Source: an uncultured delta proteobacterium
Lineage (GTDB): Bacteria; Desulfobacterota; Syntrophorhabdia; Syntrophorhabdales; WCHB1-27
Direction: 5' to 3'
Assembly (NCBI GenBank): GCA_963810935.1
Contig: CAWEPK010000003.1
Span: 1-64,000 of the forward strand
DNA: 64,000 bases
Positions 21,001-33,000 of this stretch are shown one piece after another; position 1 is the first letter of the stretch; every line of letters begins with the position of its first letter. A program made the position numbers.

Positions 21001-24000
21001 ATATGGGGGATATAAACAAAGGGAGGGAAGCTTTTGGCTTCCCTCCCTTGTCTGGTCTGTTTGGTAAAAACTTACTTCGCCGGTGCAGGCGCAGGCGCTG
21101 CAGGAGCCGGAGCTGCTTCTTCTTTCTTCTCGGTCTTCTTCATCTTCTTCGTCTTCTTCGGGGCCTTCTTCTCGGCCTTCTTCTCATCCTTCTTCTCTGC
21201 CGCCGGTGCTGCCTTCTCAGGGGCCGCCGGGGCCGCAGGCGCCTGGGCAAAGCCCGTTCCTGCGAACACGAATGCGATCATTGCTGCGAACACGAACACC
21301 ATTACTTTCTTCATCTTTCTCCTCCTATAGGAAATGTTTGATAACAATACATTGTGCATAAAACATGCCGCTTTGAAACGCAATGGCCACTTTTTCCCGG
21401 AGCTGACGCCCCGTCACCCATTACAAGCCATTGCCCCTGTAATTGCGGCCATTTCCGGAGCCGTCTACCGGCGTAGACGCAAAAAAGAGCAGGAAGAGCA
21501 GTAAGGAATGGTCGGAGATTTCCGACTTACCGGGTGTTACGGGACGGAGATTTCCGACTCTATGGCAGCCGCGTCTTTTACTTGTAGCGCAACGGGTCCT
21601 TTACTCCCGCCTCGGCAAAACCTTTGAGACGCAGTAGGCAGGCATCGCACTCGCCGCACGCCCGGCCGGCCGGCGTTGGGTCGTAGCAACTGGTCGTAAG
21701 GCTGTAGTCCACTCCCAGCTCCAGCCCCCTCCTTACGATCTCCGCCTTGCTCATCCTTATAAGGGGGGCATGGATGGTGACGTGCTTGCCCTCGACGCCC
21801 GCCCGGGTCGCCAGGTTCGCCATCTTCTCGAAGGCCTCTATATAGGCTGGGCGGCAGTCGGGATATCCGCTGTAATCAAGCGCGTTTACGCCGATGAAGA
21901 TGTCGCCTGAGGCAAGGCCCTCCGCCCAGGCAAGGGCGAAAGACAAAAAGATCGTGTTGCGCGCCGGGACGTAGGTGACGGGGATGCCGTGCTGCATCTC
22001 ATCCGGCCGCCGGCCTTTCGGCACGGGCACGGCGCTGGTAAGGGCAGAGCCGCCGCCTAAGTCCCCGATATCTATGTGTATGATTTTATGGCCGGCAACA
22101 CCGGCTGCGTCAGCTACGCGGCGCGCGGCCTCGATCTCTATTTTGTGACGCTGGCCGTAGTCGAAGGTGAGCGCATACACCTGAAACCCTTGCGATTTTG
22201 CGATGGCGAGGGCTGTGGCGGAGTCGAGCCCCCCGCTCAGCAGTACCACCGCCGTCTTCGTCTCGCCCGTCAGGCTATCCGTCTTCATGGGTTATAAGGA
22301 TAACCGTTTTAATTCCGGTTACTCTTCCTCGTCCCACTCGTCGAGGCCGCCGTCCGCACCTGCGGAAAGTACCGAGAGCTTGACCGCTCCGATCATCCGG
22401 TAAACCTCGCCGGGCGCCCGCTTGCGCCCGCCTACCGTGAGAAGCTCATCCACCGTCACGCCGAAAAGGCGCTCGTTCTCCTCGAGATACGGCTTTATAA
22501 GCGCCCACTCCGCGTCTCCGAAGGGAAGGAACTGGCCGCCGTTCAACTGCTCGTCAACGAGAGCGCCCGCCGGATCCCTGACGAAAATGGCGCCGCCGGA
22601 GGCAAGGGAAAACAGGTTTGAGCCCGGATAGGGGGTCTCCTGGGGCACGACACGCCCCTCGTCGTCAAAGGAAAGGCCGTTCACGATCACGAACCCGCCG
22701 TTATTGTACGGGTCGCCTGCCATAAATGACTCAGCGAGGAAGTCAAGGGCGGTACCGTTGATCACGACCCTGGGGCGCCCCGCCGCATTTATGAGCGGCC
22801 TGCCTGCCGCATTTCCCATCACGTAGACCTCTCCGCCCTTGGCACCGTACATGAAGGTCTGGCCCACGTCGCCGTGGATGACGAGCTTGCCTGCTTTCAG
22901 TATCTGGCCTATCTGGTCCTGGCCGTTCCCGTGAACGTGCAGCTCTGCCCCGTCTATGCCGGAGCCGAGGTAGTCGCCGGTAGCCCCGTATGCATCGATC
23001 CTGACGCCCTGGGTGTCCGGACCGAGACCGCAAGCCAGGAATCGCTGCCCCCGGTGGCCGAAGCAGATGAAGCGCCGCCAGCCGAGCTTATATGCGTCGC
23101 AAACGAGGCGCGCGTGCGCATCTTCCCCTTCAGCCGGGAAGTCGCCCGCATCGGTGACCAGCAACTTCTCGCCCCTTTTCGGCCGCCTCAAGGTGTGCCG
23201 GCTGGCAAAATCGCACCTGACGTAGGCTGCTTTTTCGGCATGGGCAAGAAGCGGGACGGAGCGGAAAATTTCGTCCAGGGAACCCTGGATCATCTGGAGC
23301 AGGGAGCGTCTCCTCTTGCCGCCCGTCGGATAACGGCGGTCGAGAAGGCGCGTAAGGAGCTCGATCACTGCCGGTTTGGCTTTGTCCGAGGCTGCCAGAT
23401 CGACCAGCGAGGCAAGGCGGCTGCGCACCTCTTCGAAATTCCAGGAGACAAGGCCGTCCATGAAATAGCCGAACAGGACGTCCGCGTCCCCGGCCACTTT
23501 TTTCTTAAGGTCGGAGGCGGCCGTTTTCAAAAGCGGCGCAACGGCAGGCGCAGACTGGAAGGCATATGGCGTTTTGCCGGCAGGCACGCCTATCTCGCGA
23601 CCGAACTTGTCCGTGCAGGTCATAGTGTGGCCGCTGCCTGCCTCGCCGATCGTGAAGATAAAGGCGCCGCCGTCCGTGTAGCTGCCGCCCCGGGCGTTCC
23701 AGTAACGGTCTGCCACCTTCCCGAAGCGCGGGTCTTCGGCCGCGAGGCTTTCCAGGGTCGCGTCGATCGCCTGCTTTTCCGAGCAGATGAGGCCCACCTG
23801 GAAGTCGCCCTCCTGGAGGGCAAAGACCTGCGGCCGGAGCATGGCCGTATCCGTGATGCCGATAAGCTGGAACTTGCCCTCTTTCGGCATCGAGCGGGCG
23901 ATGATGAAGAACCAAGGCCCATCGGGGGAGCCGTGGATCTGCGTTGCCTGTATCTGCCTGTAAATACGCTGCTTTTCCTTGGGCAGGTGGTCGAAGTCCG

Positions 24001-30000: not shown

Positions 30001-33000
30001 TTCATGCCTTCCGCCCGTCGTAATAAAAAGGACGTCCGGAGTGGACGTCCCGTCTTTTTGACACCCCTCTGTGGTCGGCTAGTTTAACAAAACAAACAAC
30101 GCATGTCAATGCCTATGGGCGTTATTCGTTGCGTGCCCGGCGTAAGTCGGCGAAAGAGCGGTATATCTCACGCCGGGCACGCAAGTACCCGATTAAAGCT
30201 TGAACAGGAGATCCGCGTAATTCGGCACCGGCCACATATCCTTAGGCACCAGCCCCTCCATCCGGTCTACGTCACCGCGCAAATCCTTCATTGCGGGAAC
30301 GACCTTGTCGCGGAGCCATTCTGCCTTCTTCACGACGTCGCCTATCCCCTCCGCCTTCGCGGTTGCCGCTTCCAGTTGGGCCACGCTCTTAAAAGAAGAC
30401 GCAAGGATGTCCGCCAGTTGTTTCAAAAGCTCGGTCTGGGCGGAAGCCGCCACGCCGGCGGACTTGAAACCGGCTGCGGAATCGGCCAGGAAGGTCGCGT
30501 ATTTCATCCCGGCGGGCAGGAACTGTTTCCTGGACATATCGATCGCCGTAAGCGCCTCTATATTGATCTGTTTAGCATAAGTGTCCACGTAGATGTCGTA
30601 GCGCGAGTGCAGCTCCTTGTGCGAGAGGACGCCGTATTTCTCGAAGAGCGCCAGCGCCTTCTTGGTGGTGAAGGCTTTTAGTGCGTCAACGGAGTTCCCT
30701 ACGTTCGGCAGGCCGCGCTTTTCCGCCTCCACGACCCATCCTTCCGAATAGTTGTTTCCGTTGAAGATCACCCGGCTATGCTTCTTATAGATGTCCTTGA
30801 CTATCGCCGCAGCTTCCAGGTTCTTGTTTTTGGCCTTTTCGAGGCGGGTCGCTATCTCGTCGAGGGCTTCGGCCGTGATTGTGTTAAGGGCTACGTTTGG
30901 CCCCGAGATCGACTGGGCCGAGCCGACGGTCCGAAATTCGAACTTATTGCCCGTGAAGGCGAATGGCGAGGTCCTGTTACGATCCGTATTGTCCTTGGGG
31001 ATCATGGGCAGCGTGTCAACGCCCACCTTGACGAATTGCGCGCCTCTTGCCGAGAACTTTTCGCCTTTCGATATCTTCTCGAGGATTTCCGTAAGGTCGT
31101 CGCCCATAAAGACCGAGACGATGGCCGGCGGGGCCTCGTTGGCGCCGAGCCGATGATCGTTTCCGGCGCTCGCGCAGGTAGCCCTGAGTATATCGGCATG
31201 CGTATCTACGGCCTTCAGGAGGGCGCTCAGGAAGAGGAGGAATGTTACGTTTTCGCCCGGCGTGTGTCCGGGTTCGAGCAGGTTGATGTTGTCATCGGTC
31301 GAGAGAGACCAGTTGTTGTGCTTGCCCGACCCATTAATACCGGCATACGGTTTTTCGTGAAGCAGGCACACGAGCCCATGGCGGAAGGCCACCTTCTGCA
31401 TCGTCTCCATGACGAGCTGGTTGTGGTCGGCAGCGATATTGGTGGTGGTAAAGACAGGGGCCATCTCGTACTGCGCCGGTGCAACCTCGTTATGCTTGGT
31501 CTTGGAAAGGATGCCCATCTTCCACAGCTCGGTGTCGAGGTCTTGCATGTAGGCGGAAACTCTGTCTTTAATCGCTCCGAAGTACTGATCCTCAAGCTCT
31601 TGCCCCTTTGGAGCGGGGGCGCCGAACATGGTGCGGCCGGTCAGCATGAGGTCGGTGCGCTCCATATAAAACTTCTTGTCCACGAGAAAATATTCCTGCT
31701 CGGGACCGACAGTCGATGTCACTTTCGACGATGTGGTGTTGCCCAGTGCCTTCAGCACCCGCAACGCCTGCTTCGAGACTGCGGCCATCGAGCGGAGCAG
31801 GGGCGTCTTCTTATCGAGTGCTTCGCCGTTATAGGAATAGAAGGCCGTCGGGATGGTCAACGTTACGTTGCCGCTTTCGTCTTCCTTGAGGAACGCCGGA
31901 GACGTGCAATCCCAGGCCGTATATCCCCTCGCCTCGAAGGTGGCGCGCAAACCGCCGCTCGGGAACGAAGAGGCATCCGGCTCGCCCTGTATAAGCTGTT
32001 TTCCGGAAAATTCCATGACGATGCCGCCGTCCGCGGTCGGGGATATGAATGAATCGTGTTTCTCCGCCGTTATGCCGGTCAGGGGATGGAACCAGTGCGT
32101 GTAGTGTGTGGCCCCTTTCTCAATGGCCCAGTCCTTCATGGCGTTCGCAACTATGTCCGCGACATGCGGCTGCAAGGGCAGATCTTTTTCGATCGTTTGC
32201 CTCAGGGCCTTGTAAATTTCCTTGGGGAGTCTTTCCTTCATGACCTTATCGTTGAAAACGTTGGAGCCGAAAACTTCCGTAAGCTTCATGGTCTTATTTT
32301 TCCTCCTTGCTTTTTTGTAAATCCTCTCGGACATGGGAGAACAGGCCCAATGACCTTACAGGTCCATTTTTATGCGAGATGTGTAACGTCTCGCCGTTTA
32401 CAAGTAAAATCTACACTAATATGGTAACTCCCGCCACTGGATTCTCTCGGCGGCTGCCGGAATCCGGCGGCCTACCCTATGGCGCTGCCGTCGCGCTCGC
32501 CGGTCCGTATCCGGATGCACTCCTCCAGGGGCAGCACGAATATCTTGCCGTCCCCGATTTCTCCGGTACGGCCTCCCTTGATGATCGCCTCGGTCGTCCG
32601 CTCCACGAAATCATCGTTGACTGCTATAAGAAGCTGGACCTTTCTGAGCAGGTTTCCCATCTCCTTGACGCCCCTGTAGACTTCGGTCACGCCCATCTGG
32701 CGTCCGTGGCCCAGCACCTCGCTTACCGTTATCAGGTTTACTTCCGCCTTGTACAGTTCTTCCTTTACCGCCTCCAGCCTGTCCGGTTTAATAATGGCGA
32801 TAATTACTTTCATGCTCTCCTCCCTCCTCTTAACTTTCGGCGCTCGCATACGCTCGCTTTAATACCCTGCTGCTTGCAGCAGGGTATTTATCGTTATTCG
32901 AGTATCGTATATGCGTTCTCGTTGTGCTGCGTGAGGTCGAGGCCCATGATCTCTTCCTTTTCGGGGACCCTCATACCTATCACCCAATCGACCACCTTGT

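What a model noticed while it worked through the whole genome (the two positions that open the first line are those of the whole stretch)
22319..30005. Conserved operon joins a GltD-less, split glutamate synthase to MetV-MetF-MvhD: candidate methyl-THF/ferredoxin-coupled [...]
mvhD-metV-metF-gltB2'-gltB2-gltB1/3 form one operon next to glnA(III)-glnK-amtB. GltB2' is a ferredoxin-bearing GltB2 paralogue that has lost the synthase motif; no GltD is present. The six genes stay together at 50-85% identity across Desulfobacterota, Nitrospirota and Spirochaetota, pointing to an undescribed glutamate synthase whose electron input is a dedicated methylene-THF reductase module (a second MetVF-MvhD-HdrA set lies in the Wood-Ljungdahl cluster on C16).
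Evidence so far: 79 loci of GltB2' relatives; of 59 long loci 59 have gltB2 and gltB1/3, 58 mvhD, 56 metV, 51 metF; no GltD- or HdrA-like match in any of the 79 and 76 QGAKPG motifs, about one per locus; Glu_synthase near MTHFR in 959 genomes, 52/95 of the order; invariant Cys clusters.
(Added by a program. Inside this text positions count along the whole contig: contig position 1 is position 1 of the stretch shown here. "Call 12" and the like, gene names such as g00115 and contig names such as C1 are that model's own, and its searches are not shown. The text may have been shortened before it was handed on; [...] marks where a part breaks off. The agent that wrote the report below was given it as the finding of a first reader that could run no searches.)

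Follow-up and report, generated by a model that had tools for sequence, protein, structure and literature searches.

The report
Glutamate synthase wired to folate reductase
Six linked genes build this anaerobe's only recognisable glutamate synthase, the enzyme that moves nitrogen into amino acids; in place of the usual NADPH subunit it carries a small iron-sulfur adaptor and its own folate-reducing enzyme, so it may run on methyl-folate, a fuel I found no report of for this enzyme.

Summary
The operon is real and encodes the genome's only glutamate synthase, in split form: glutaminase and FMN subunits keep every catalytic residue checked. GltB2' lacks the flavin motifs but keeps 12 cysteines; a model of a natural B2'-B2 fusion overlays the central plus FMN domains of GltB (Z 35.6, 634 residues), so B2' fills the central-domain place. 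The upstream slot is an electron input: in 86 phylum genomes with B2' it holds a remodelled MvhD in 73 and an FAD-oxidase/ferredoxin in 7, once fused into one 2528-residue enzyme. The operon's MetF is a dedicated paralogue; MetF joined such operons more than once (AU p=4e-5). An ANTAR-type leader suggests nitrogen control. Corrections: MetF is adjacent in only about 49 of 86, and 'no HdrA/GltD in any locus' is false. Best reading: methyl-THF donates electrons via MetF-MetV-MvhD'-B2' (about 50%); a shared ferredoxin/HdrA input is the main rival. Direction and complex are untested. Nine literature searches found no description. The scan noted both versions before on other genomes.

The parts
30081..30109 (-). 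sigma-70-type promoter (TTGACA-17-TAAACT) for the operon
   Evidence: 10 of 12 consensus, best of 3 sites in 13.7 kb (3.6 expected by chance, so position is the argument); TTGACA recurs at this place in relatives
30024..30073 (-). ANTAR-type leader: hairpin P1 (hexaloop A1/G4), hairpin P2 overlapping an intrinsic terminator
   Evidence: Terminator 30051-30029; same terminator in 25 of 67 leaders, with P1 in 21, against 0 of 57 in each of two control sets; on 17 hand-picked leaders P1+terminator 93.6% paired, 0/500 shuffles, P2 98% paired. P2 loop is one base short in this genome
29616..30005 (-). MvhD', [2Fe-2S] adaptor; lacks the Hdr-type CxxCxYxxADxAG helix
   Evidence: PF02662; Cys15/44/69/74 invariant in 66; motif comparison with Hdr-linked copies
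28889..29557 (-). MetV, Fe-S subunit of MetVF
   Evidence: PF12225; cysteines conserved in 66; 47.5% to the C16 copy
27969..28892 (-). MetF, flavin subunit of methylene-THF reductase, operon-specific paralogue
   Evidence: PF02219; Glu21, Asp110, Gln188 conserved in 66-67 of 67; own clade, 99 SH-aLRT, apart from the C16 copy (60% identical)
26588..27958 (-). GltB2': 2[4Fe-4S] ferredoxin + flavin-motif-less barrel + third 4-Cys site; fills the central-domain position and is the docking end for input modules
   Evidence: 12 invariant Cys in 65; model and fold searches; fusions
25073..26584 (-). GltB2: ferredoxin + FMN synthase barrel with 4-Cys cluster motif
   Evidence: PF01645 E 1e-93; aligns to GltB 851-1171; FMN/2-oxoglutarate motif residues conserved in 69-70 of 70
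22319..24949 (-). GltB1/3: class II glutamine amidotransferase (Cys34 after a short propeptide) fused to the GXGXG beta-helix
   Evidence: PF13522, PF01493; Cys34, His58, Arg60, Arg234, Asn260-Gly-Asp invariant in 58
30193..32334 (-). glutamine synthetase type III (supplies glutamine)
   Evidence: PF12437, PF18318, PF00120; 33 bits against the GmaS-type model, cut-off 470
32472..32849 (-). P-II nitrogen regulator (glnK)
   Evidence: PF00543
32894..34147 (-). ammonium transporter amtB
   Evidence: TIGR00836 over cut-off
45081..46304 (-). GAF-GAF-ANTAR protein, the only ANTAR protein found in the genome; candidate antiterminator of the operon
   Evidence: lies beside a second amtB (42768-43997)

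Best explanation
The genes encode a glutamine-dependent glutamate synthase built of three chains (B1/3, B2, B2') that together reproduce the four domains of GltB, with an Fe-S wire in B2' and B2 instead of a GltD subunit. Electrons enter at B2' through the adaptor MvhD'. In this lineage they come from the operon's own MetVF running backwards: methyl-THF -> MetF flavin -> MetV clusters -> MvhD' [2Fe-2S] -> B2'/B2 clusters -> FMN -> 2-iminoglutarate. Net: glutamine + 2-oxoglutarate + methyl-THF -> 2 glutamate + methylene-THF. Shown here by computation: gene content, conserved catalytic and cluster residues, B2' in the central-domain place, an exchangeable upstream slot, a dedicated MetF clade. 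Inferred: activity (about 0.9), entry through MvhD'-B2' (about 0.8), methyl-THF as donor (about 0.5).
For: Only glutamate synthase in the genome; canonical GltB in 7 of 86 B2' genomes (6 in one family) against 57 of 214 others. Fusion model overlays GltB 448-1184, Z 35.6, rmsd 3.3, 634 aligned. Upstream slot: MvhD' in 73 of 86, FAD-oxidase/ferredoxin in 7, never both in those loci; fused to B2' in G135 and six further proteins. Five FAD-oxidase genomes have no stand-alone ~300-residue MetF. All B2'-linked MvhD' lack the helix motif of Hdr-linked MvhD. Predicted MvhD'-B2' complex: weak pass, 0.55 against best control 0.00 (mark reached by 116 of 157 solved and 2 of 215 mismatched pairs; at 0.60 or under by 18 and 2), runs agree in at least 3% of contacts, partner pLDDT at least 75. 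Operon MetF separate from the Wood-Ljungdahl copy; B2'-linked MetFs not one clade (AU p 4e-5), and gene order was rearranged with the link kept. Where hdr genes follow, they carry their own second metF (3 of 5 genomes checked). Acetyl-CoA synthase in 47 of 50 genomes of the close set and 73 of 86 against 129 of 214 in the phylum. Methylene/methyl-THF is -200 mV (PMC8760232); the glutamate synthase couple is about -65 mV by my estimate from recalled values, so about -25 kJ/mol downhill.
Against: MetF lies in the cluster in only about 49 of 86; 20 show MvhD' alone (9 of them cut by contig ends), 6 MvhD'-MetV, 1 no module. A single-contig genome (G086) and G123 have the MetVF-linked operon with no acetyl-CoA synthase, so methyl-THF is not a bulk intermediate there; 6 of the 49 lack the hit. 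Eight phylum genomes embed the genes with HdrA. Purified MetVF enzymes take electrons from reduced ferredoxin in vitro and did not co-purify with MvhD-Hdr (PMC8760232, PMC9430772). Ferredoxin-type clusters are usually near -400 mV (PMC8097209), so steps from methyl-THF would be uphill. The genome has 12 GltD-like domains elsewhere and a glutamate dehydrogenase. Genomes are related, so co-occurrence counts overstate.
Confidence: 0.5

Rival explanations
1. Shared input: MvhD' takes low-potential electrons from ferredoxin or from an HdrA-GltD fusion (NADH) in trans and feeds both the glutamate synthase and MetVF, which makes methyl-THF for methionine under the same nitrogen control.
For: MvhD' without MetF in up to 26 of 86 genomes; HdrA in the cluster in 8; operon in genomes without acetyl-CoA synthase; HdrA of 1469 residues with a GltD-like insert on C16; MetVF accepts ferredoxin in vitro.
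Against: MvhD' lost the motif kept by all Hdr-linked MvhD examined; if ferredoxin sufficed, B2' and B2 with their own ferredoxin domains would need no dedicated flavoprotein, yet one is fused on in FAD-oxidase lineages; the genome already has two other MetF-type genes; a biosynthetic MetF need not be recruited repeatedly.
Confidence: 0.3
2. Co-regulation only: MetVF-MvhD' and a ferredoxin-dependent split glutamate synthase are separate enzymes sharing a nitrogen-controlled transcript.
For: MetVF is dispensable next to the genes in many lineages; the complex prediction is weak and its runs disagree.
Against: MvhD' stays directly before B2' when metVF moves behind gltB1/3 and is replaced, not merely lost, by a protein that fuses to B2'.
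Confidence: 0.1
3. Coupled (confurcating or bifurcating) complex: electrons from methyl-THF and from ferredoxin are both required, or a low-potential pair is split between iminoglutarate and methylene-THF.
For: Up to six clusters in B2'/B2 give more than one entry point; a bifurcated path has been proposed for NADPH-GltS (PMC8097209).
Against: No HdrA-type flavin in the six genes; B2' has lost the flavin motifs; both sinks are downhill from ferredoxin, so coupling is not needed.
Confidence: 0.06
4. Methylamine route: the GltB-like chains act as N-methylglutamate synthase and MetVF handles the C1 unit.
For: N-methylglutamate synthase is also a split GltB homologue (recalled; PMC6237917 seen as search listing only).
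Against: No GmaS-type ligase over cut-off in the genome; only glutamate synthase present; near-exclusion of canonical GltB; neighbours are glnA, glnK, amtB, glnD, glnE in 45 of 79 loci.
Confidence: 0.04

Closest known systems
Bacterial NADPH-glutamate synthase GltBD and ferredoxin-GltS (PDB 1EA0, 2VDC, 6S6S, 7MFM, 1OFD)
   Same: Same four functional parts; B2 keeps the synthase motifs; B2'-B2 model overlays central plus FMN domains.
   Different: Three chains in permuted order; central domain is a full, cluster-bearing paralogue of the FMN barrel; four-Cys instead of three-Cys cluster motif; two added ferredoxin domains; no GltD.
Split 'archaeal-type' glutamate synthase and the proposed F420-dependent FGltS (PMC3448663, PMC9012536, passages)
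   Same: Separate domains as genes; a swapped electron-input subunit inferred from gene context.
   Different: Input is MvhD'-MetVF or an FAD-oxidase, not an FrhB-like subunit; a degenerate second barrel is not mentioned in the passages read.
Type IV methylene-THF reductase HdrCBA-MvhD-MetVF of Moorella and Sporomusa (PMC8760232, PMC9430772, passages)
   Same: MvhD-MetV-MetF in the same order; MvhD-MetF contact shown by pull-down in Sporomusa.
   Different: No hdr genes in this operon; MvhD' lacks the Hdr-type motif; the partner is a glutamate synthase. None of the four types listed in PMC8760232 has this make-up.
ANTAR antitermination leaders (PMC3369931, passages)
   Same: Two short hairpins with six-base loops (A1, G4), the second overlapping a terminator; that paper reports such leaders before glutamate synthase genes of Desulfotomaculum reducens.
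   Different: No Rfam match here; second loop one base short in this genome.

Membership tests
Glutamate synthase (GltS) | Class II amidotransferase with N-terminal Cys nucleophile | tested here: met
   PF13522; Cys34 after a propeptide-like stretch invariant in 58 of 58; cleavage itself not tested
Glutamate synthase (GltS) | FMN synthase barrel with FMN and 2-oxoglutarate motifs | tested here: met
   B2 aligns to GltB 851-1171, E 2e-53; motif residues in 69-70 of 70
Glutamate synthase (GltS) | Central domain packed on the FMN barrel | tested here: met
   By position in a predicted model of a natural fusion from a relative: Z 35.6, rmsd 3.3, 634 aligned to 1EA0 448-1184. By sequence B2' is just under the PF04898 cut-off and closer to the FMN domain
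Glutamate synthase (GltS) | C-terminal GXGXG beta-helix | tested here: met
   PF01493 in B1/3
Glutamate synthase (GltS) | Glutamine-dependent glutamate formation | not testable with these tools
   needs assay
NADPH- or ferredoxin-GltS (GltB type) | Single large subunit with a three-Cys [3Fe-4S] site, and GltD or free ferredoxin as donor | tested here: not met
   Three chains; four invariant Cys 418/421/424/430; no gltD in the operon; no PF04898 match at E 1e-30 in the genome
MetVF-type methylene-THF reductase | Adjacent metV and metF with catalytic Glu/Asp/Gln | tested here: met
   Pfam hits; Glu21, Asp110, Gln188 conserved; their match to E. coli Glu28, Asp120, Gln183 is recalled
Type IV MTHFR (HdrCBA-MvhD-MetVF) | hdrCBA in the same operon and an Hdr-type MvhD | tested here: not met
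   No hdr in the window operon; motif absent; the genome's type IV set is on C16
N-methylglutamate synthase pathway | GmaS ligase in the genome | tested here: not met
   33 bits against cut-off 470; genome 93% complete
N-methylglutamate synthase pathway | N-methylglutamate dehydrogenase genes | not tested
   not searched
ANTAR target RNA | Two hexaloop hairpins (A1, G4), second overlapping a terminator | tested here: inconclusive
   Met in relatives; in this genome P1 and terminator fit, P2 loop has five bases

The most novel reading that the evidence does not exclude
A widespread class of glutamate synthases with a plug-in socket (B2') for mild electron donors: here a fifth type of MetVF that oxidises methyl-THF directly into glutamate synthesis, so that anaerobes spend the one electron pair of the oxidative Wood-Ljungdahl pathway that cannot reduce NAD+ on nitrogen assimilation and spare NADPH and ferredoxin; and B2' is a living intermediate showing that the GltB central domain arose from a duplicated FMN barrel.
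Probability: 0.45. Interest if true: 0.87.

Novelty: new variant of a known kind. Interest (0 to 1): 0.74.

Why it matters
Described glutamate synthases use NADPH, NADH or ferredoxin, with F420 proposed (PMC3448663, PMC8097209). This form occurs in 86 of 300 sampled genomes of the phylum, more often than canonical GltB (64), so it is probably a main route of ammonium assimilation in sulfate reducers and syntrophs. It offers a soluble six-protein system to test two open questions: what the physiological redox partner of MetVF is, and whether the GltB central domain came from a duplication of the FMN barrel.

Tried and rejected
Idea that B2' is by sequence an orthologue of the central domain: whole-profile comparison favours the FMN domain (97.5%, E 6e-12) over the central domain (93.6%, E 2e-7), as does B2' folded alone (Z 23.2 to 6S6S 781-1164). 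A forced comparison of the N-terminal stretches, chosen after seeing the overlay, aligned all 76 columns with the central domain's GSMG and QVTNP region but weakly (score 6.3, E 0.22; 1 of 100 shuffles as high; B2 0.9): suggestive only. Idea that hdr genes behind the operon serve its MetVF: a second metF lies about 15 kb on, same strand, in 3 of 5 genomes. Rfam: one unrelated weak hit. No RNA holder listed for the operon. No solved split glutamate synthase among PDB sequence hits. Substrate of the FAD-oxidase not identified: closest solved is LctD, whose metal-binding histidine motifs (recalled) are not matched in the alignment. A first pair count used a misregistered structure and was discarded. 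Nine divergent MetF rows were dropped and 62 of 170 rows used for the tested tree; 66 B2' rows were chosen by hand. Literature searches (and 84 for ANTAR) found no description; the library lacks most subscription papers, Mock et al. 2014 was seen only as cited, and no supplements were read.
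Full report
OBSERVATION. The six ORFs lie where stated, on the minus strand, tightly packed, with Pfam identities FlpD/MvhD, MetV, MTHFR, a weak Glu_synthase with ferredoxin, a strong Glu_synthase with ferredoxin, and GATase plus GXGXG. Type III glnA, glnK and amtB lie upstream. A scan with B2' gave 79 loci (best 80 of 286 matches kept) whose record titles name Syntrophorhabdales and other Desulfobacterota, Nitrospirota and spirochaetes. Two orders occur: the window's, and mvhD-B2'-B2-B1/3-metV-metF. These do not undo the finding: in 3 of 5 genomes checked the hdr genes lead to their own second metF, as in this genome's Wood-Ljungdahl cluster on C16.

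IT IS A GLUTAMATE SYNTHASE. B1/3 keeps Cys34 behind a propeptide-like stretch and the glutamine-site residues in 58 of 58 sequences; B2 keeps the FMN and 2-oxoglutarate motifs in 69-70 of 70, with eight ferredoxin cysteines and a four-cysteine site where GltB has three. It is the only such enzyme in the genome (93% complete). In 300 genomes of the phylum, B2' was found in 86 and canonical GltB in 64; both in 7, six of them in one family. Nitrogen genes flank 45 of 79 loci. The operon has its own promoter and an ANTAR-type leader (motif definition from PMC3369931 passages), and the genome's only ANTAR protein lies 15 kb away beside a second amtB. A methylamine role is unlikely.

WHAT B2' IS. 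It is a full-length paralogue of B2 with 12 invariant cysteines and a nearly invariant stretch at 128-154, while the flavin-binding half of the barrel is unconserved. Alone it folds as a barrel closest to the GltB FMN domain, with the conserved ends poorly ordered. B2' and B2 are fused in ten fetched loci and in 4 of 6 Nitrospirota hits by frame length. The model of one natural fusion has pTM 0.90, orders the B2' C-terminus and overlays as one body on GltB residues 448-1184 (Z 35.6, rmsd 3.3, 634 aligned), which span the central (423-780) and synthase (781-1202) domains (PMC8097209, section 6.1 part 1 read). So B2' stands where the central domain stands, while still carrying clusters. That review calls the origin of the central domain by duplication possible but open. 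The model had GltB structures in its training set, so the overlay may partly reflect memory; direct sequence support is weak.

THE UPSTREAM SLOT IS AN ELECTRON INPUT. I read the neighbourhood of all 86 B2' genomes by hand: mvhD'-metV-metF 42; Hdr-containing clusters 8; mvhD'-metV 6; mvhD' with neither 20 (9 cut by contig ends); FAD-oxidase/ferredoxin 7; nothing 1; unjudged 2. MvhD' is visible in 73. The FAD-oxidase takes the same place, and in G135 the chain FAD-oxidase, ferredoxin, B2', B2, glutaminase, beta-helix is one 2528-residue frame; six more proteins fuse it, or part of it, to B2'. The B2' tree separates FAD-oxidase from MvhD' types by one branch (98). All B2'-linked MvhD' keep four cysteines but lack the helix motif of the Hdr-linked copies; that this motif faces HdrA is my inference. 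A predicted MvhD'-B2' complex passed weakly: 0.55 against 0.00, runs agreeing in at least 3% of contacts, partner pLDDT at least 75; at this level 18 of 157 true and 2 of 215 false pairs passed in the calibration.

IS METVF THE DONOR? For: the window's MetF belongs to a clade (99) made only of operon copies and apart from the C16 copy; B2'-linked MetFs fall in four or five places and one origin is rejected (p 4e-5; also 1e-5 for the two hdr-free orders), which means repeated recruitment or replacement; five FAD-oxidase genomes lack a stand-alone MetF; acetyl-CoA synthase is present in 47 of 50 close genomes and 73 of 86 against 129 of 214. Methyl-THF at -200 mV (PMC8760232) cannot reduce NAD+ but lies above 100 mV below the glutamate synthase couple (my estimate from recalled values). 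Against: MetF is adjacent in only about 49 of 86; 6 of these, including a single-contig genome, gave no acetyl-CoA synthase hit; the fetched MetFs of lineages with MvhD' alone do not belong to the main operon clade; MetVF takes ferredoxin in vitro and binds MvhD-Hdr loosely; cluster potentials are unknown. I put methyl-THF oxidation at 0.5, a shared ferredoxin or HdrA input at 0.3, and the rest at 0.2.

COMPARISON AND NOVELTY. It works like GltB and meets the sequence and fold tests of the glutamate synthase family, but not those of the NADPH or ferredoxin forms, nor of type IV MTHFR. The nearest precedent for a swapped input is the proposed F420-dependent form (PMC3448663, PMC9012536; passages). 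Passages of PMC6085437, PMC5736913, PMC7325909 and PMC2702500 discuss Hdr-MvhD-MetVF or HdrL but not this operon. Searches found no description; subscription papers and supplements were not seen. Earlier notes of this scan report the same operon, an Hdr-containing version and the FAD-oxidase version on other genomes; I looked them up after finding the FAD-oxidase swap and use them as leads only.

VERDICT. Real, widespread, and as far as I could search undescribed: a new variant of glutamate synthase with a modular electron input, probably methyl-THF-fed in this lineage. Interest 0.74.

Noticed in passing
window 35844-37647 (-): Aldehyde ferredoxin oxidoreductase gene is split by a frameshift within its N-terminal domain; the close relative L008 also shows two pieces in that region. 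Sequencing error or real break not resolved.
   Followed up: partly
window 30193-32334: Type III glutamine synthetase stands where close relatives have a type I enzyme, often with a class I glutamine amidotransferase gene (27 of 79 loci) before mvhD'.
   Followed up: partly
window 8018-16000: Low-GC island (0.37-0.43) with an integrase, a GmrSD/HNH nuclease and an EcoRI-type methylase, followed by an IS200 transposase at 16718-17236.
   Followed up: no
window 42768-46304 (-): Second amtB, a small helix-turn-helix-like ORF without Pfam hit and the GAF-GAF-ANTAR protein form a small nitrogen cluster.
   Followed up: partly
L120:4966-12552 (G135): One 2528-residue frame joins FAD-oxidase, ferredoxin, B2', B2, glutaminase and beta-helix; the glutaminase Cys is internal, so it would need cleavage. 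A 3016-residue relative exists (P0367).
   Followed up: partly
L032, L043, L049, L058, L060, L062, L065 (about 15500-21000): A second, conventional split glutamate synthase with a GXGXG-GltD fusion directly follows the operon.
   Followed up: partly
L030:942-2531 and 8 other of the 79 loci: A separate 520-570-residue Glu_synthase-family protein without the QGAKPG motif recurs near the operon; role unknown.
   Followed up: no
L135:5872-9855 (G086): NrpR regulator, an HdrC-plus-ferredoxin protein and a second unusual MvhD precede metV-metF-mvhD' in a genome without acetyl-CoA synthase.
   Followed up: partly
L080:12903-13253 (C16): A small helix-turn-helix gene sits between hdrB and hdrA in the Wood-Ljungdahl cluster, and in the hdr sets behind the operon in relatives.
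   Followed up: no
L082:9442-11013 (C12): A 523-residue MetF with a MetV-like C-terminal part; the only MTHFR-like gene in five FAD-oxidase genomes is of this length.
   Followed up: partly
L191:9029-10390 (G217): B2'-B2-B1/3 with no input module beside it and only a 614-residue MTHFR-domain protein in the genome.
   Followed up: partly
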